From the sequence record MH494197.1: a DNA stretch of 64,000 nt; one strand, given 5' to 3'. Positions 25,882 to 57,123 of the stretch are shown here, in pieces (position 1 is the stretch's first letter; the number at the start of each line of letters is the position of its first letter). This stretch comes from Escherichia phage CMSTMSU. Made by a program: the position numbers and the translations under genes. The notes below the pieces were generated by a model. That model saw only the letters and a program-made list of their open reading frames with translations, made no database searches and was not told the origin of the DNA.

Positions 25882-25999
25882 GCGTTGATTAGGTCGATTA
25901 GTGTTAGTTGAATTTTTCTGGTTCTTGTTCCATTTTAATACTCTCCATGTATGTTGTTACAAATATAATTATATCACCTTTTTCCAAGCTGTCCCGCTG

Positions 26000-26029
26000 A
26001 AAAAGTAGAAACGGAATTTTCCGTTCTCA
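26000..26029 (-). terminator. Rho-independent terminator after the VWA gene
   Basis: GAAACGGAA-TTT-TCCGTTCTC with a T-run on the minus transcript. Confidence 0.45.
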
Positions 26030-26033
26030 TTAT

Positions 26034-27447
26034 TTAGTACTTAGCTACGTTGACGCTTTTGTCAGCTTCATATTCGTAGTGTACAGTTTCGCCAAATGGT
26101 GCTTGTTTGTTAGGATTGCTGTGGATAACAAACAGTGTCTTACAGTAATCAGGATCACCCCATGACTGCCACGGCTCACCATCGGTAAACATAATAAGCT
26201 GTTTAGGCTTATAGTTGTCATGCTTCATATGAACCCATACTGCTTCAAAGTCAGTACCACCACCACCTTTCACTGGATATTCGAGAATCTTACTCTCTTC
26301 ACCAGTTTTGTAATCTTTCACAGTATAAACTTCAGTATCGAACGTCATGATACGGATTTTAAATTGTTTAAACTGCTTAGTGATACCCAGTACTTCACTG
26401 ATGAAATCACGGAGCATATCTTCAGAGATAGAACCGGATGCATCTAGTGCAATTGCAATATCAATATCATCATCTGGTTTCATACCGGGAAGATTGGATT
26501 CCCGTAGAATGAACCAGAACTACCAAAACCAGCACCCCATGAACGACGATTAGGATTTTGATAAGTTGCATCAGACTTCAACCAGCTACGCAGTGTGCGG
26601 TGAAGTTTAGAACGCCAGTCAATCTTAGGTTCTTTGAAGTTGTTAATCATACGTGCGATTTCAGCAGGAGTACCACCTGCACGAGCAGCATTCATCATTG
26701 CTGTTTTGAAATCATCCATATAATCACGTTTTTGTTTCTCACTTGAACCACCCTCTTGACCTTCTTGTGGAACGTCATGCTGGTCGATTGTTGTACCTTT
26801 GCCTTTACCATCTTTGATATCACCAAAAGTACCGCGTGATTTACCTTCACCCTCACCACTACCAGCCTGTGGATTTCCTTCACCTTCTCCGTCTTGATCC
26901 TGCTTATCTTCTTCTTCGAGAATATTATAAATCTCTTCAGCAGTCATACCATCGTACTTTTTATCGTACAGCCATTGGCTTTGGATTTTACCAATTTTAT
27001 CACGAACAAGAATCTGGTTAATTGCATAGTCAGCAGCACGGTTATAACGCTGCGGGTCACGCATACCACGACGCAAGAAGTGGTCATATGCACAGTGAAG
27101 AATTTCATGACAAATAACTGCAATCAGGTTTTCATCAGTCAAACCTTCTGTCATTTCTTTAAGTTGTTCTTCAGTTACTTCAGGATGTTTCTCACGAATT
27201 GCTTCTTCGTATGCTGACTTTTGGATTGGTCCTGAATACCCATGATGAATTCTACGTTGTAGAATAAATGCTTACCATCTACAGCCAAAGTACGACACCA
27301 TGTGTTGTTTGCAACTGGACGCAGACGAGAAGCCAGTACACCAAAGAATGGGAATGTTAGCATTAAAGATGTGCGAGCTAAGATCAGACGATCTTGACAT
27401 TCTTTCTGGAGAGCCGGAGTAACATCACTGAAACGTTTATCTGACAT
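26034..27447 (-). CDS. Two-domain protein: N-terminal HExxH zinc-metallopeptidase-like domain plus C-terminal von Willebrand factor A domain (DUF2201-like VWA partner of MoxR ATPases); frame broken twice
   Basis: CHEILHCAYDH (HExxH) in ORF 26480..27154; DIAIALDASGSIS (MIDAS DxSxS) and GGGTDF in ORF 26034..26483; N-terminus in ORF 27175..27447. Confidence 0.7.
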
Positions 27448-27520
27448 TTGTATTTCCTCGTTTAGTTAAGATAAAGAAGGATACCATGTGGTATCCTCCT
27501 TGTCAACACTCTTTTAATTA

Positions 27521-28846
27521 TTAACCAAGAGAGCGTGCTTTACGTACTAGGTCAGAGTACTTCATAACGAAGTCTTTAAACGCTGGTACATCTTTAATCG
27601 TAATCGCTACTTTATGAAGCGTGATGGTACGAATCGCCAGTACTGCCAGTTCTGCTTGAGTTGCAGAGAAGTTATGGTCTAGGAAGGTGATGAAGTTGTT
27701 GCACAGCTTACCCCAATCTTCCACTGGTAGACGTTGTTCTTGCTTCTCATTGTAGAGGTCGATAATTTTGTAAACCAGATTCAGAGTGATGAAGTAGTTC
27801 GCGGAAATATCGAGCGAAGCATCAATCTCTTTAATCTCACCCTGTAGGATGGACATGGTATCTGGTAGTTTAGCTACGTTATCAACATACTCGATGTATT
27901 CAGTTGCTACGCCTTCACCAACACGACCTGCAATCATCGCACGGAACACTTCTTTATCAATGTTCTTAACTTTCTTCAGATCTTCGTAGCGTGCTACTGC
28001 TTCCCATGAACGTGGAGAAGTACCACCACAGTGAGAAGGATCTTGTGGGCTAAGGGTGTTGAAGTGTTTAGCACCAGTGTTGTTGATGAACGCTACAGTT
28101 GCTGGGTTCAAACGCTTGCCAATCGCATAATCGTTAATCCAATCTTGATGATAAGGAATCATTTCGATGTGGGTCATACGGTCACGCAGTGGTGTAGCTA
28201 GAGAGAACGTTACACCGCCATCAGTTTCACGGTTACCTGCTGCGAGAATCAGTGCAGTCTTAGGTAGCTTCATCTCACCAACACAACGGTCGAGGATTAG
28301 CTGATAAGACGCTGCCTGTACAATCGGCATTGCAGAGTTGATTTCGTCAAACAGAATAACACCTTTCCAATCTGGAGACAGTTTCAGTACTTTAGGTGCT
28401 GCCCACACAACTGCTGTTTCAGCGATGTAATCTTGTGCACTAGCCAGTTCAGATTCAATCAGTTGCTTACCATCCATATCAAGGAACACTTTCTCTGGAA
28501 CTGGGATACCACGAAGGTCACTTGGTTCAATCTGAGACAAACGGAAATCGATAAAGTTAGTGTCTTGGTCGATTAGTTTGGCTTCAAACGCTGCCAGTTC
28601 ACGGCGAAGTTGATCAGCATTTTCAGTATCAGCTTCGATTTGTTGTTTCATGAACTCAATTTTGCCACGTTATCTTTACGCAGTGGGTAGTTCTCATCAG
28701 CGTATTGACGTGCGATAGCAGATTTACCGATACGGGCTACCCCAAATCATCAGGCTATCTTGAATCATGTCAGCCAGTGCCATTGCTTCTTTAGCTTTCT
28801 TAGGAGTCAGTTTTACGTTCAGGATATCGTTGTTTTGAGTAGACAT
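27521..28846 (-). CDS. MoxR-family AAA+ ATPase (CobS-like); N-terminus with two frame breaks
   Basis: Walker A GSP-IGKSAIARQYA reconstructed at 28700-28750, PSDLRG, Walker B ILFDEINSAMP and sensor AAGNR in track ORF 27521..28651. ATG at 28846 with RBS AAAGGAAA. Confidence 0.75.
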
Positions 28847-29013
28847 GTATATTTTCCTTTTGTTGGATAAAATCGTTTAGGTTTCTATTATAGCCAATCC
28901 GTGGGCAAAGTAAAGGAACTGTGTTAAAAGAATTTTAACTTATCAGTTCCTTTGTTACTTCATGAATCATCCGTGTATTTAAAAGGCATTTCTCTTTGCC
29001 GTCTTGATGTGTC

Positions 29014-29041
29014 ATTATATCACATCGTTCAGGCTTGTCAA
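29014..29041 (-). promoter_or_regulatory. Consensus sigma70-type promoter (TTGACA-16 nt-TATAAT) reading toward the ATPase gene
   Basis: Reverse complement of 29036..29041 is TTGACA and of 29014..29019 is TATAAT; spacer 16 nt. Confidence 0.55.
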
Positions 29042-29104
29042 CAACTTTTTTATTTCTTTTCAATCTCACATCTTGTGATTTTGAAAACTTGCTTCGTGGT
29101 GGTC

Positions 29105-29132
29105 ATTATAACACATCATTCGGCGTTGTCAA
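29105..29132 (-). promoter_or_regulatory. Second consensus sigma70-type promoter, inside a ~75-bp direct repeat of the first
   Basis: Reverse complement gives TTGACA (29127..29132), a 16-nt spacer and TATAAT (29105..29110). Confidence 0.55.
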
Positions 29133-29535
29133 CATCTTTTTCTTTATTTTCGAAGCTACATGTGCATCGAAAATAACATTCTAAAATCATCACCACACAA
29201 TGTTAACTCTGTAACTATCATTTGCGTCGAGAGGTATATGTACTGCCCTTCTACATAGTAGGGTGAAGTACATATCCTATCAAGCGATGTAAAGATTATA
29301 GAACTTTTGAACTCTCTTTGCAAGGGGATTTTTGTAAATTCGTAAAGAATGTTTTCTTTACAAATTGTATATCCAAACTTGCTAAGTCTTAAACCACCGC
29401 CAGTTCTGAAATTTTCAAAATTGACATCAGAAGCATACGGTCTGTTAATTCAGCGTCTGATCCATGTACTTCTCTAACTTTTAAAAGTACATCGTTTTGA
29501 AATTCAGTACTGTTGTGTGGTTCAGGAATCATAAA

Positions 29536-30912
29536 TTACATCCCCACGAAACCCTGTCTTGCTGCATATGAAGGAGCATCTTTAACTTTATAGTCTTGGA
29601 CACCATCTTTACCAATTTTCGGACCCATATCTTTGGTTCCGAAGCAGCAATCAGTGGATTCATCAACTTCTTCAGTACTTTCATCATTATATCGAACATC
29701 CGATAAAATGTCACACGCTTTTGAAGCTTTTCTACGATTTCTTTTGATCTTCACCTGATTTAACCTTATCCACAATGTGGATAAGGCATTCGGTGATATC
29801 TTTAAGTAAATCGGTGGCAACAGCATCAGAAGGAGTCTCAACTGCAAAACTTTCTTCTTCAGTAGATTCTTCACTAGAAGTGATTTCATCTAATGCTTCA
29901 ACCAATTCACGATAATTATATCCCATCTTATTTGTCCCTAGAAATTGTTGATATTTCTTCTGGAGACTTTCGAAAATGTCTTCGACTTCTTCATCGCTTT
30001 CATCTTCTAGTTCTTCGTTACCTTCCACGGACTCATCACTCTCATTAACATTGAGTGGGTTGTCACCTAGAGCAGTACACGGAAACTTAGGTTCAAATTT
30101 GTGAACACGGTTCTCGTTACCGTCATTGTCATAGTACTCTGGTTCAGGACGATTGTCAACATCTTCATCAACGACACGTCTCCAGTAGAACTTGTTACCC
30201 TTGGTAATAACAACAAAGTGGTCACCTTCTACACCATTAGTTTTAGCTTGACCGTCACGAACAGCATCAGCTTCAGTGTTGTAAGGGCCAAAATCAGTAC
30301 TGTCACCTTGTTCTTCATCTTCAGAGATGGTTAGGTCTGGTAGGAAAGTGTTTTCTTCAACTTTAACTTCAGTATCTGGGTTACCTTCTACAGAATATTC
30401 ATCTTCTGGTTCGTCTTGAAGACCAGCTAGAGATAGCATACGACTGAAATCGAATTCTTCTTCGATGATTTCTTCTTCTTCCTCTTCTTCAACTGATTCT
30501 AGTTGAGGTTGACCGGAAAGATCTAAAGAAAACTCTTCTTCATCTGCAACACGGCTCTTCGAACTCTGCATCCATACTTACTTCTTCAGAATCACCACCA
30601 AAATCACCAGCTTCAGCAGATAGTGAGTCAGCAGCAACTTCTAATGGGTCTTCAACAGGTGCATCAATTGCACCATCCATTGAACCACCAACTTCTTCTT
30701 CTGCACCAGCACCAATTGAATCCATATCGAGTGGTGCGATTGGTGTAGAAAGGGTCATTGACCCATAGAAGGAACTGGAGCAGCAACAGGAGAAGCTTGA
30801 CGCTCGGCTTGACCAGCTAGTGCAAGCATACGAGATAGTGTTTCTAGATCTTCAGATTCTAGTCCTGCGATATCGATTTTAACTTGTGCTTCATTAATTT
30901 TTTAGCCATTTT
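29536..30912 (-). CDS. Highly acidic protein (~400 aa, Glu/Asp-rich) with a basic Cys-containing C-terminal tail; frame breaks
   Basis: Track ORFs 30540..30758, 29732..30571 and 29536..29889. Repeated SRML(A/S)LAG motif; runs of EEEEEE. Confidence 0.4.
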
Positions 30913-44830: not shown

Positions 44831-44902
44831 CTTATCTCTTTATCATCAAGTGATGTTCAGATACTAGTAATTATATCAGAAGATGTTAACTTGTCCCAGC
44901 TT

Positions 44903-50625: not shown

Positions 50626-51014
50626 CCAATTATAGCATAAAAATCCTACTTGCCCAAATCTTCTATAATTCTTTTATGATATCATTGTTTTCCAGACATA
50701 AAGTACTGAAATTTCTACCTGTTTTTCATTGAGTTCATTAATCTCAAGCATAAGATAACCATAAGTGATATCTTGAACCCTACTTCGTTTTACCCTTGAG
50801 TACAGTCTGATGGGTACAGATACGCGAGTATTCAAAAGAATTCTGATAAATCATAACGATATACGGTATTCATTCTTGTAACGTTTACGACTGTACGATT
50901 CTAAACACTGTGGAAACGTCTATCAAACATACTACTTCTTAGTTGAAGTATGATTGGATCTAACTTATGCGAGAAATACTTTTGATTATTTTATTAAATC
51001 TTGTTACATGTCGT

Positions 51015-56284: not shown

Positions 56285-57123
56285 TCACTTCGTTCTCTCG
56301 TAACTCAAGAAGTCACTACGTTTACTTCGTAAACTAGTTCCTTCTGAAAATGATAATGTACTTTAAAAGCTTGACGGATTTGTTGAGGACTATTTCATCC
56401 CCGAGGAAGAAGGTAATAAAAAGAGACAATTAAGTCTCTCTGACGATGATGGCATCGGATATTATCGAATTGCGAATTTCTCAAATTTTGGACGGATCTT
56501 TCCTGTACCAAAATTTAGAGAAAAGCGGGTTGCTCGGTTTCTCTCTATCGCAGTCATATGCAACGGTCGCTGGTCTTTTCATCAACAGCACTCAGTACTA
56601 AACTCTATTCGATCAAAGTAGTACCTGTTCTCAAATTTTGGACGCAACTTTCTTGTAAAATCGCGTCCACAATCCTGAACTCCTTAGCAAATTCGTAAGG
56701 TGCGAACCTTATACATCTATCTAGGAACTCTCTGTGTGCTTGGAGTTCTTTATACAGCCGTGTCGCCGTGATTCGTGGTCTTATCTCGTGTTTGTTTGAT
56801 TGCCAGTACTCTAACAGGTTTCTTTTGCTGTTCGCTACAACGGTAAAGCTCATCTATCCTTTACATTTTCAAGAGAAGTAGGTTCTCATTATCCATTTTT
56901 CAATGTCCGTTGTCATTTTACAATATACATTATATCACTAGGATGTATTATGTCCCGTTACATGTATACCTTTTTCAAATCCTTGGAACAACGGTCAAAA
57001 TTGTGTTGATGAATTCGACATCCTCTTTGATATTGGAGTCTATAGCATCATTCTCGTTTCTTGTTGTGTTCCTGTATTTGTGTTCAGGGTGATTGTATAC
57101 CACCTTGACTACATTATTTAGGT
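56285..57123. other. ORF-poor segment, GC-richer than its surroundings, with a ~35-bp imperfect direct repeat and hairpins; nature unknown
   Basis: Only one 82-aa ORF (56605..56853, no motif). TTCTCAAATTTTGGACG occurs at 56479..56494 and 56629..56644; hairpin GGACGC...GCGTCC at 56641-56664. Confidence 0.3.

What the first reader, a model, noticed from the sequence alone, without database searches (positions are those of the whole stretch)
29013..29280. Two tandem consensus sigma70 promoters inside ~75-bp direct repeats, plus a nested palindrome
Read on the minus strand, each repeat contains a perfect TTGACA, a 16-nt spacer and a perfect TATAAT (29014-29041 and 29105-29132). Both point at the MoxR/VWA operon, about 170-260 bp upstream of its ATG. 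A nested inverted repeat (ATATGTACT...CCC...GGG...AGTACATAT, 29236-29275) lies just upstream. Perfect host-consensus promoters in tandem are typical of strong phage early transcription units and suggest the ATPase module is expressed immediately on infection.
Basis: seen in the sequence. Interest (0 to 1): 0.55.

Follow-up and report, generated by a model that had tools for sequence, protein, structure and literature searches.

The report
Duplicated strong promoter before a terminator
Two perfect host-type promoters sit in tandem in a giant E. coli phage, as reported, but they feed a conserved terminator hairpin that lies before the ATPase gene, so they may mainly make a short leader RNA rather than simply switching the gene on early.

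Summary
Two perfect TTGACA-N16-TATAAT promoters lie on the minus strand at 29041..29014 and 29132..29105, the only two in 64 kb (0.08 expected). They sit in two abutting ~92-104-nt tandem units that are 72% identical. The window comes from a Rak2/121Q-like jumbo coliphage (Asteriusvirus). A 98.5% relative has 28 such perfect promoters, all on one strand, so these belong to a large phage promoter class. Three things change the interpretation. (1) Between the promoters and the ATPase start codon every Rak2-like lineage keeps a hairpin plus T-tract resembling an intrinsic terminator (window 28953..28906), with compensatory base changes. The leaders (171 and 265 nt) are the longest in the class. 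(2) The orthologous promoter is single-copy in sister genera and carries a phage-type -35 (GAAACG or GGGACA); only RaK2 and Asteriusvirus have TTGACA, Asteriusvirus has two copies and SP27 three. (3) The "nested palindrome" lies inside a conserved 125-aa gene and is made by codons for conserved residues. The orthologous ATPase was also detected in phAPEC6 virions. Strong host-polymerase promoters are well supported. "Immediate ATPase expression" is not shown. Nothing here is categorically new.

The parts
29156..29532 (-). Orthologue of CDS '121Q_562' (125 aa in relatives). It is frameshifted in the window by homopolymer indels and is the last gene of the virion-structural gene block.
   Evidence: Annotated in Ecwhy_1, G17, WPEC3, RaK2, A4, ph0011, SE_PL, CBB and GAP32. 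Substitutions against G17 are spaced in multiples of 3. Indels are listed.
29295..29323 (-). Internal promoter-like site TTGCAA-17-TATAAT inside CDS 562, followed by cttt-ACATC.
   Evidence: The -10 is invariant in six phages including RaK2, at synonymous positions too. It is absent in SE_PL, CBB and pEa47. Function not shown.
29236..29275 (-).
   Evidence: Read. Folds at -18.7 kcal/mol, z -3.2. It encodes I-C-T-S-P-Y-Y-V-E-G-Q-Y-I-Y. The arms are the ATA-TGT and TAC-ATA codons of conserved residues. It is weakened in RaK2 and not recognisable in SE_PL or CBB.
29144..29176 (-). AU-rich hairpin H1 spanning the stop codon of CDS 562 (TAG 29158..29156), directly upstream of the P1 A-tract. No T-tract follows it.
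   Evidence: Inverted repeat I4, 13-nt arms, 92% complementary. Folds at -11.6 kcal/mol, z -3.15. Not conserved in G17.
29069..29161 (-). Tandem repeat unit 1: A-tract (UP-like), P1 -35 TTGACA (29132..29127), 16-nt spacer ending TGT, -10 TATAAT (29110..29105), start region.
29057..29087 (-). Hairpin H2 between P1 and P2, at the junction of the two repeat units. It is the paralogue of H1.
   Evidence: Inverted repeat I6. Folds at -9.8 kcal/mol, z -3.0. Both stems are kept in G17, A4 and ph0011, with changes only in the internal loop. Homology of the right arms of H1 and H2 is shown.
28968..29071 (-). Tandem repeat unit 2: A-tract, P2 -35 TTGACA (29041..29036), 16-nt spacer ending TGA, -10 TATAAT (29019..29014), class start motif ACATCAAG, mini-hairpin GGCA/TGCC+TTTT (29000..28981), and motif AUACACGGAUGA (28978..28967).
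28906..28953 (-). Terminator-like hairpin in the leader: AAAGGAACTG (28953..28944) and CAGTTCCTTT (28921..28912), with an inner stem in the 22-nt loop, then ACTTT(T)G.
   Evidence: Inverted repeat I15, 10/10. Annotated as an ARNOLD terminator in G17. Folds at -14.6 kcal/mol, and -13 to -17 in 11 lineages. 97.9% of cells paired, 3 pairs with changes on both sides and none one-sided. Recovered by unguided RNAalifold.
28893..28906 (-). Small hairpin with a CGGA loop (GCCCA-CGGA-TTGGC) directly after the T-tract. It is weak in this phage (one C.U mismatch) and clean in other lineages.
   Evidence: 84% of cells paired, 3 pairs with changes on both sides, four pair types at one position. Predicted de novo in the single-promoter clade. 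In the window only -3.2 kcal/mol, z -0.45.
28887..28914 (-). Proximal weaker promoter-like site P3, TTTACT-16-TATAAT (spacer 17 in error-free relatives). Its -35 overlaps the terminator tail, and the -10 ends 40 nt before the ATG.
   Evidence: Invariant within Asteriusvirus. TATCAT in RaK2 and absent in SE_PL, CBB and pEa47.
27521..28846 (-). MoxR-like AAA ATPase gene (442 aa in relatives). In the window it is split by two frameshifts into 28846..28724 and 28651..27521. SD GGA at 28857..28855.
26034..27447 (-). DUF2201_N (putative metallopeptidase) plus VWA-like protein gene (469 aa in relatives; N4 gp25-like), also fragmented in the window. It is followed by a terminator (26026..26009) and a phage-type promoter GGGACA-16-TATAAT (25995..25968), which close the two-gene unit.

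Best explanation
P1 and P2 are two copies, made by a ~92-nt tandem duplication, of one ancestral promoter that stands at the boundary between the virion-structural gene block and the MoxR-like ATPase / VWA-metallopeptidase gene pair in all Rak2-like jumbo phages. In the RaK2 + Asteriusvirus lineage this promoter acquired the full host consensus: an A-tract UP-like element, TTGACA, a 16-nt spacer, TGn and TATAAT. It thereby joined the phage's class of roughly 28 perfect host-sigma70 promoters. It is then predicted (inferred, not shown) to be read by unmodified E. coli RNA polymerase from the start of infection.

Transcription from P2 (about +1 at 29007) and P1 (about 29098) does not run straight into the gene. 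It enters an unusually long leader holding a conserved hairpin plus U-tract (28953..28906). A large share of transcripts should stop there, giving leader RNAs of about 100 and 190 nt, and only read-through reaches the ATPase. The same hairpin also ends transcripts arriving from the structural genes upstream. A weaker proximal promoter-like site (28914..28887) may supply terminator-independent expression in Asteriusvirus.

Shown here: the sequence elements, their conservation, the duplication, the covariation in the hairpin, and the switch of -35 type. Inferred: promoter activity and strength, termination, timing.
For: - Perfect hexamers, only 2 in 64 kb against 0.08 expected. Extended -10 and A-tracts.
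- 28 perfect sites, all on one strand, in the 352-kb relative TH47 against 0-4 in simulations. P2 shares the class start motif ACATCAAG.
- Both -35 hexamers are invariant and the -10s nearly so across Asteriusvirus clades that are only about 84% identical overall, while neighbouring spacer bases differ.
- Tandem units abut, 72% identity, score 79 against 26 +/- 5. Copy number is 1 in RaK2, SE_PL, CBB, GAP32, Erwinia phages and metagenomic relatives, 2 in Asteriusvirus, and 3 in SP27 through an exact ~94-nt duplication.
- The -35 at the orthologous site is GAAACG/GAAACA, GGGACA or TTGACA depending on lineage. The promoter just after the VWA gene stays phage-type in both CBB (Table S6 of PMC5259590) and the window (25995).
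- The hairpin plus T-tract lies between promoter and ATG in every lineage, at -13 to -17 kcal/mol. 97.9% paired, with three positions changed on both sides and none on one side only. Covariation score 0.297 against 0.096 in shuffles (0/500) and 0.03-0.18 when slid. Recovered de novo. Annotated as a terminator in G17.
- Leader lengths of 171 and 265 nt, against about 30-55 nt for most other perfect promoters.
Against: - There is no transcription data for any Rak2-like phage, so promoter use, start sites, termination efficiency and timing are all inferred.
- The U-tract in Asteriusvirus and RaK2 is interrupted (UUUACUUUU), so termination could be weak there.
- Keeping two (or three) strong promoters upstream of an efficient terminator seems wasteful unless the short RNA itself or regulated read-through matters.
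- No alternative (antiterminator) pairing was predicted, so any regulation of read-through has no identified mechanism.
- The hairpin could exist solely to end the upstream late operon.
Confidence: 0.55

Rival explanations
1. One reading: two strong tandem early promoters simply drive high, immediate expression of the ATPase-VWA operon. The leader hairpin is a stabilising 5' structure or a negligible terminator.
For: Promoter quality and class membership. Tandem strong early promoters are a known phage arrangement (T7 A1/A2/A3, from my own knowledge). The interrupted U-tract in Asteriusvirus could mean leaky termination. Selection has kept both copies.
Against: The hairpin plus T-tract is conserved with covariation in all lineages, and in CBB, GAP32 and pEa47 it looks like a canonical strong terminator. 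The leader is 3-5 times longer than for other class members. Sister genera use a phage-type promoter here. The ATPase is found in virions.
Confidence: 0.2
2. The promoters plus terminator form a gene for a small non-coding RNA (about 100 nt from P2; about 50 nt in CBB-like phages) that acts in trans, for example as an Hfq-type regulator or by binding host CsrA through its A-N-GGA motifs. ATPase expression comes mostly from elsewhere (P3, or read-through from upstream).
For: The order promoter, short conserved RNA, terminator is kept in every lineage. Two A-N-GGA-(U/A) motifs are conserved, one in a hairpin loop. The Asteriusvirus leader has AUACACGGAUGA, 10/12 to the CsrA SELEX consensus RUACARGGAUGU with ACA and GGA intact (consensus from PMC4347634). 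Duplicating the promoter would raise RNA dosage.
Against: No Rfam match. Outside Asteriusvirus the motifs score 4-8 of 12, which is background. One lineage (L025/L028) has lost motif 1. GGA-loop hairpins are not enriched genome-wide, 36 against 30-42 expected. The RNA body between start and terminator is poorly conserved between genera. No expression data.
Confidence: 0.15
3. The hairpin is only the terminator of the upstream late structural operon, and the promoters happen to lie in that operon's 3' untranslated region. The order promoter-before-terminator has no regulatory meaning, and enough polymerases read through.
For: No other terminator-like element lies between the structural genes and the hairpin; H1 has no T-tract. 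In CBB-like phages the promoter is squeezed between the stop codon and the hairpin in a 137-144-nt spacer.
Against: The order is retained over all genera and through a rebuild of the promoter, an A-tract insertion and one or two duplications, always upstream of the hairpin. If the terminator is efficient enough to end late transcripts it must also stop promoter-proximal ones.
Confidence: 0.08
4. The two sites are chance matches to the consensus in AT-rich DNA and are not used.
For: None beyond the general caveat that consensus matches are not proof of function (tool caveat).
Against: 0.08 expected against 2 observed. 28 against about 1 genome-wide, all co-oriented with the genes. Conservation of the hexamers across diverged relatives.
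Confidence: 0.02

Closest known systems
Tandem strong host-RNA-polymerase early promoters of coliphages (T7 A1/A2/A3; T5 and T4 early promoters with A-rich upstream regions) - from my own knowledge, not tested here
   Same: Several near-consensus sigma70 promoters in one orientation within a few hundred bp, with A-rich upstream tracts and an extended -10, in a lytic phage that relies on the host polymerase.
   Different: These promoters are not at a genome end or in the early-gene cluster. They sit between a late structural block and a two-gene ATPase/VWA unit, arose by a recent local duplication with variable copy number (1-3), and are followed by a terminator before the first gene.
'RpoD-like promoters preceded by an UP-like element' predicted in Rak2-like phage CBB, and its 'divergent' TGAAACG class (PMC5259590)
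   Same: Same phage group and same architecture. P1/P2 match the first class. The CBB, GAP32 and Erwinia-phage orthologues of this very promoter match the second class in sequence and spacing (TGAAACG-16-TATAAT).
   Different: The CBB rows visible run from Porf_193 to Porf_218 with no Porf_216. The site lies more than 100 nt before the ATG, beyond the 100 bp that the study extracted upstream of each gene. Neither the class switch at an orthologous position nor the tandem duplication was described there.
Promoter-proximal terminators controlling phage operons (lambda PR'-tR' with its short 6S RNA and Q antitermination; T4 immediate-early/delayed-early read-through) - from my own knowledge
   Same: A strong promoter, a short leader, an intrinsic terminator, then the genes. 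The default product would be a short RNA, and gene expression needs read-through.
   Different: No Q-like or N-like factor, binding element or sigma-dependent pause signal was identified. No antiterminator structure was predicted. Regulation of read-through is purely hypothetical.
CsrA/RsmA binding sites (GGA in a hairpin loop; SELEX consensus RUACARGGAUGU; PMC4347634)
   Same: Two conserved A-N-GGA motifs, one in the loop of a 5-bp hairpin that shows covariation. A 10/12 match with ACA and GGA intact in Asteriusvirus. In Asteriusvirus, RaK2 and SE_PL-like phages a further GGA lies in the Shine-Dalgarno region.
   Different: The similarity beyond GGA is confined to one genus. In Asteriusvirus the hairpin is weak. 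No binding data exist. This is a lead only.

Membership tests
Bacterial sigma70 (housekeeping) promoter | -35 TTGACA and -10 TATAAT hexamers separated by 17 +/- 1 bp | tested here: met
   12/12 matches with a 16-nt spacer at both sites. The spacers are identical in length in all relatives.
Bacterial sigma70 (housekeeping) promoter | Auxiliary elements of strong promoters: TGn extended -10 and an A/T-rich UP element at about -40 to -60 | tested here: met
   TG before both -10s. 65% A in the 20 nt upstream of each -35. The A-tracts are 2 nt longer in error-free relatives.
Bacterial sigma70 (housekeeping) promoter | Transcription initiates 6-9 nt downstream of the -10 with sigma70 holoenzyme | not testable with these tools
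   No transcriptome or 5'-end data for any Rak2-like phage in the held literature.
Phage-wide class of perfect host-consensus promoters in Asteriusvirus (equivalent to the CBB 'RpoD-like + UP' class) | Co-oriented with genes, far above chance in number, shared start-region motif | tested here: met
   28 perfect sites, all on one strand, in TH47 including this pair. P2 has gaccACATCAAGac like many members. P1 has a diverged version (ACCACGAAG).
Phage-wide class of perfect host-consensus promoters in Asteriusvirus (equivalent to the CBB 'RpoD-like + UP' class) | Short leader, with the first gene starting a few tens of nt after the -10 | tested here: not met
   Most members have the first ORF about 30-55 nt after the -10. 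P2 is at 171 and P1 at 265, the longest in the class.
Intrinsic (Rho-independent) terminator | Stable G+C-containing stem-loop directly followed by a U-rich tract on the transcribed strand | tested here: met
   10-bp outer stem plus inner stem, -14.6 kcal/mol, tail ACUUU(U)G. Canonical tetraloop hairpins with U5-6 tracts in CBB, GAP32 and pEa47. ARNOLD call in G17. The simple scan did not list it because the loop exceeds 8 nt.
Intrinsic (Rho-independent) terminator | Structure maintained by selection (compensatory changes) | tested here: met
   Three stem positions with changes on both sides (GC/AU; CG/AU/GC), none one-sided, 97.9% paired. Recovered without guidance.
Intrinsic (Rho-independent) terminator | Transcripts actually end there | not testable with these tools
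   Needs Term-seq, a Northern blot or in vitro transcription.
Transcription attenuator / riboswitch-type leader | Mutually exclusive terminator and antiterminator structures, or a conserved ligand- or protein-binding domain upstream of the terminator | tested here: not met
   RNAalifold on nine leaders predicts only the terminator and the small GGA-loop hairpin. No Rfam family at gathering or permissive thresholds. No conserved leader peptide: short ORFs differ between lineages (sequences).
Small regulatory RNA gene | Own promoter and own terminator, non-coding, conserved among relatives | tested here: inconclusive
   Promoter and terminator are conserved everywhere, but the RNA body is poorly conserved between genera. 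No expression data.
CsrA/RsmA target | Two or more GGA motifs, at least one in a hairpin loop, with similarity to RUACARGGAUGU | tested here: inconclusive
   Two conserved ANGGA motifs. Hairpin supported by covariation. 10/12 match only in Asteriusvirus, 4-8/12 elsewhere. Matches of 10/12 or better occur about once per 13 kb.
T4-type replication origin (promoter-primed, oriF/oriG-like) | Promoter next to an unwinding element at a replication-related skew inflection | tested here: inconclusive
   Cumulative GC skew follows gene orientation only. The nearest flip (TH47 about 310 kb, window about 23.7 kb) is a convergent gene boundary about 5 kb away. No support; idea dropped.

The most novel reading that the evidence does not exclude
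The conserved unit 'promoter - short leader - terminator - GGA-loop hairpin' is a regulatory RNA module of Rak2-like jumbo phages. Its main product would be an abundant short RNA, boosted in Asteriusvirus by rebuilding the promoter to host consensus and duplicating it, and that RNA would either gate the MoxR-ATPase/VWA genes through regulated read-through or act on a host RNA-binding protein such as CsrA. The lineage-specific swap of the -35 from the phage type (GAAACG/GGGACA) to the host type (TTGACA) would then be a documented case of a phage gene unit being re-timed from factor-dependent to immediate host-polymerase transcription.
Probability: 0.2. Interest if true: 0.6.

Novelty: new member of a known kind. 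Interest (0 to 1): 0.38.

Why it matters
Jumbo phages of the Rak2/121Q group have no published transcription map. This locus gives a compact, testable entry point for three reasons. First, it holds the clearest candidates for host-polymerase promoters. Second, it provides a natural series at one orthologous site (GAAACG, GGGACA and TTGACA at the -35; one, two or three copies) that could show how the phage's promoter classes are read and how gene timing evolves. Third, it has a conserved terminator-containing leader in front of the widespread but functionally obscure phage MoxR-ATPase/VWA pair (N4 gp24/gp25-like). For annotation, it warns that a perfect promoter upstream of a gene does not by itself indicate when that gene is expressed. 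The promoters themselves are an expected kind of element.

Tried and rejected
- **Divergent TGAAACG promoter inside the P2 spacer:** G17 and SP27 read TTGACAAGT-TGAAACG-ATGTGATATAAT. Rejected, because in CBB that motif lies 16 nt from the -10, not 6. The true relation is that TGAAACG occupies the -35 register at the orthologous promoter of CBB-like phages.
- **PA5oct ncRNA003 as a homologue of the leader RNA:** rejected. It is not adjacent to the PA5oct ATPase, and in Paride the order upstream of the ATPase is the ordinary terminator-then-promoter.
- **Replication origin:** GC skew follows gene strand only.
- **Genome-wide family of GGA-loop hairpins:** not enriched, and no second copy of the module was found.
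- **Leader peptide:** short ORFs in the leader are not conserved (an 11-aa ORF in the window, 3 codons in A4, an immediate stop in pEa47).
- **T4-late-type promoter near the ATPase, to explain its presence in virions:** no TATAAATA on the minus strand of the window or in TH47 313-322 kb around the locus.
- **tRNA, tmRNA and Rfam families:** none.
- **Literature:** no transcriptome of a Rak2-like phage found.
- **Not used:** the large protein searches and structure prediction, because the question concerns non-coding DNA.
Full report
**Source and context.** The window is from a Rak2/121Q-like jumbo coliphage. Positions 27500-30600 are 99% identical to Escherichia phages Ecwhy_1, WPEC3, BF17 and fEgEco12, and 84% identical to 121Q, PBECO4, G17 and phAPEC6, all Asteriusvirus. 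Everything relevant is on the minus strand. Relatives annotate, in order of transcription: virion structural genes; a 125-aa hypothetical gene ('121Q_562'); a ~300-nt spacer; a 442-aa ATPase; and a 469-aa protein. Pfam gives only weak AAA/AAA_3 hits for the ATPase. The next protein has DUF2201_N (putative metallopeptidase) plus a VWA-like DUF2201 domain. phAPEC6 calls them 'MoxR ATPase' and 'N4 gp25-like'. The window itself lacks 21 bases relative to Ecwhy_1 over 3.1 kb, almost all in homopolymer runs of 4-7, and has only 8 substitutions. This is a sequencing-error signature. It explains why the ATPase, the VWA gene and CDS 562 all look frameshifted in the window.

**Checking the observation.** They are the only perfect matches in 64 kb, with 0.08 expected. 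Both have TG before the -10 and an A-rich tract upstream. The direct repeat is real but was mis-sized. It is 56 nt at 77% without gaps. With gaps it is two abutting units, 29161..29069 and 29071..28968, at 72% identity, scoring 79 against 26 +/- 5 for shuffles. That makes it a head-to-tail tandem duplication with a period of about 91 nt.

The palindrome (29275..29236) exists and would fold stably, at -18.7 kcal/mol and z -3.2. However, it lies inside CDS 562. The arms are the codons ATA-TGT and TAC-ATA of a conserved peptide I-C-x-S-P-Y-Y-x-x-G-x-Y-I-Y, and the inner CCC/GGG comes from Pro and Gly codons. Substitutions against G17 fall every third base. The repeat is weakened in RaK2 and unrecognisable in SE_PL and CBB. 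One both-sides change in phage A4 keeps the pairing, but a single event is not evidence. I treat the palindrome as probably incidental to coding.

**P1 and P2 belong to a large class.** I assembled the unannotated 352-kb genome of TH47, a 98.5% relative. It has 28 perfect TTGACA-N16-18-TATAAT sites, all on the same strand, where simulations give 0-4. Many share a start-region motif (TATAAT-N5-6-tACATCAAg), and P2 has it too. This matches the 'RpoD-like promoters preceded by an UP-like element' predicted for the related phage CBB (PMC5259590). This pair is also the only one in TH47 less than 100 nt apart.

**What is unusual is downstream.** For most of the 28 promoters the first gene starts about 30-55 nt after the -10. 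For P2 it is 171 nt and for P1 265 nt, the longest in the class. That leader contains a 10-bp inverted repeat, AAAGGAACTG/CAGTTCCTTT (28953..28912), with an inner stem in its loop, followed by ACTTT(T)G. G17's authors annotated it as a terminator.

I collected the same spacer from RaK2, A4, ph0011, SP27, SE_PL, pEa_SNUABM_47, CBB and GAP32 and from 18 IMG/VR loci found with an ATPase alignment. Every lineage has promoter, then hairpin plus T-tract, then ATPase. The stems read GGAACTG/CAGTTCC, GGACTG/CAGTCC, GGCACTG/CAGTGCC, GACACTG/CAGTGTC or AGCACTGA/TCAGTGCT, and the loops range from 2-4 to 23 nt. On a loop-trimmed alignment the 9-pair stem is 97.9% paired. Three positions changed on both sides and none on one side only. 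The covariation score is 0.297 against 0.096 in shuffles (0/500) and 0.03-0.18 for slid controls. Stability is -13 to -17 kcal/mol throughout, and in CBB-like phages the element is a textbook terminator.

A second, 5-bp hairpin with a YGGA loop follows the T-tract: CCAAA-cgga-TTTGG, TCAAA-tgga-TTTGA, GCTTA-tgga-TAAGC, TCAGA-tgga-TCTGA. It is 84% paired, with four pair types at one position. Unguided RNAalifold on nine full leaders predicts exactly these two hairpins and nothing else. In Asteriusvirus the second hairpin is weak, and its sequence overlaps the spacer of a proximal promoter-like site, TTTACT-16/17-TATAAT (28914..28887). That site is invariant in the genus but fades in RaK2 and is absent further out.

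**Evolution of the promoter.** The orthologous promoter is single-copy in most lineages and its -35 differs:
- TGAAAC(G/A)-16-TATAAT in CBB, GAP32, the Erwinia phages and their metagenomic relatives. This is the 'divergent' class of the CBB paper, which that paper links to DNA-synthesis genes.
- GGGACA-17-TATAAT in SE_PL-like phages.
- TTGACA-16-TATAAT with a newly inserted A-tract in RaK2.
- Two copies in Asteriusvirus, and three in SP27 through an exact ~94-nt duplication.

The window itself uses GGGACA-N16-TGATATAAT promoters elsewhere (25995, 44897, 56956; nine in TH47). The one at 25995 sits just after the VWA gene, where CBB has a TGAAACG promoter (Porf_218). So the neighbouring promoter kept the phage type while the ATPase promoter was converted to the host consensus. 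All classes share the TGTGnTATAAT extended -10.

**Interpretation.** The best-supported reading (about 0.55) is that the duplicated, host-consensus promoters fire strongly with unmodified host polymerase, but their transcripts meet a conserved terminator about 100 nt (P2) or 190 nt (P1) downstream. Short leader RNAs would then be the main product, and ATPase/VWA expression would depend on read-through or on the proximal promoter. The same hairpin would also end the upstream late operon.

A dedicated small-RNA function (about 0.15) is suggested by the conserved promoter-terminator order and by two conserved A-N-GGA motifs. In Asteriusvirus one of them reads AUACACGGAUGA, 10/12 to the CsrA consensus RUACARGGAUGU. 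Outside that genus the resemblance drops to background, and such hairpins are not enriched genome-wide.

Timing is unknown. No transcriptome exists for this clade. The orthologous ATPase was found in phAPEC6 virions, 6 peptides and 19% coverage, which argues against a purely early role.

**Verdict.** The sequence observation is confirmed apart from the size of the repeat and the nature of the palindrome. The element is a new member of a known kind: phage host-type early promoters, here tandemly duplicated, followed by a promoter-proximal terminator. The comparative findings (class switch at an orthologous site, copy-number series, covarying leader terminator) make it a useful experimental handle, but not a surprising one. 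Interest 0.38.

Noticed in passing
window 27500-30600 (e.g. 28659, 28733, 28906, 28932, 28980, 29056, 29136, 29416): The window lacks 21 bases relative to Ecwhy_1, nearly all in homopolymer runs of 4-7, against only 8 substitutions. As a result the ATPase (28846..27521), the VWA gene (27447..26034) and CDS 562 (29532..29156) appear frameshifted. This is probably a sequencing or assembly artefact rather than pseudogenes.
   Followed up: yes
window 25968-25995, 44870-44897, 56929-56956 (minus strand); also 50629-50656 (TGGGCA): A recurring phage-type promoter motif (T)GGGACA-N16-TGATATAAT, in the same register as CBB's TGAAACG/TGGAACG 'divergent' class. There are nine copies in the TH47 genome, all on one strand. 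The copy at 25995 follows a terminator (26026..26009) just after the VWA gene.
   Followed up: partly
window 29295-29323 (minus strand): Promoter-like TTGCAA-17-TATAAT inside CDS 562, followed by cttt-ACATC (resembling the class start motif). The -10 is invariant even at synonymous positions from Asteriusvirus to RaK2, but absent in SE_PL and CBB.
   Followed up: partly
L007 (SP27, LC494302.1) about 905-1090: An exact ~94-nt tandem duplication of the P2 unit gives three consensus promoters in a row, so repeat copy number is still changing within the genus.
   Followed up: partly
TH47 genome (L032-L039), e.g. 91773-105605: 28 perfect sigma70-consensus promoters, all on one strand, clustered around 91-106 kb in front of short ORFs. 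Many share AGTACTGTATAAT and the start motif tACATCAAg, which looks like the phage's early region.
   Followed up: partly
L032 (TH47) 20597, and TH47 218158 (L036): The hairpin gagtacaAGGAtgtactc carries a 12/12 match to the CsrA SELEX consensus RUACARGGAUGU 7 nt before an SD-ATG. GTACACGGATGTAC (11/12) lies directly after a TATAAT. Both are outside the window.
   Followed up: no
L004 (RaK2, NC_019526.1) 1635 vs 1695: The annotated start of the RaK2 ATPase (record 33157) seems about 60 nt too far downstream. Alignment with orthologues and a good SD support the ATG at record 33097.
   Followed up: partly
L008, L014-L016, L027 just upstream of the GGGACA -35: SE_PL-like phages have a small AT-rich palindrome, AAGATTTT-AAAAATCTT, abutting the -35 of the ATPase promoter, in the position where Asteriusvirus has hairpins H1 and H2 next to the A-tracts.
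   Followed up: no
window about 23700 (TH47 about 310 kb): GC skew flips where plus-strand genes (window 1 to about 23.5 kb) meet the minus-strand block that includes the ATPase unit. This is a convergent transcription boundary.
   Followed up: partly
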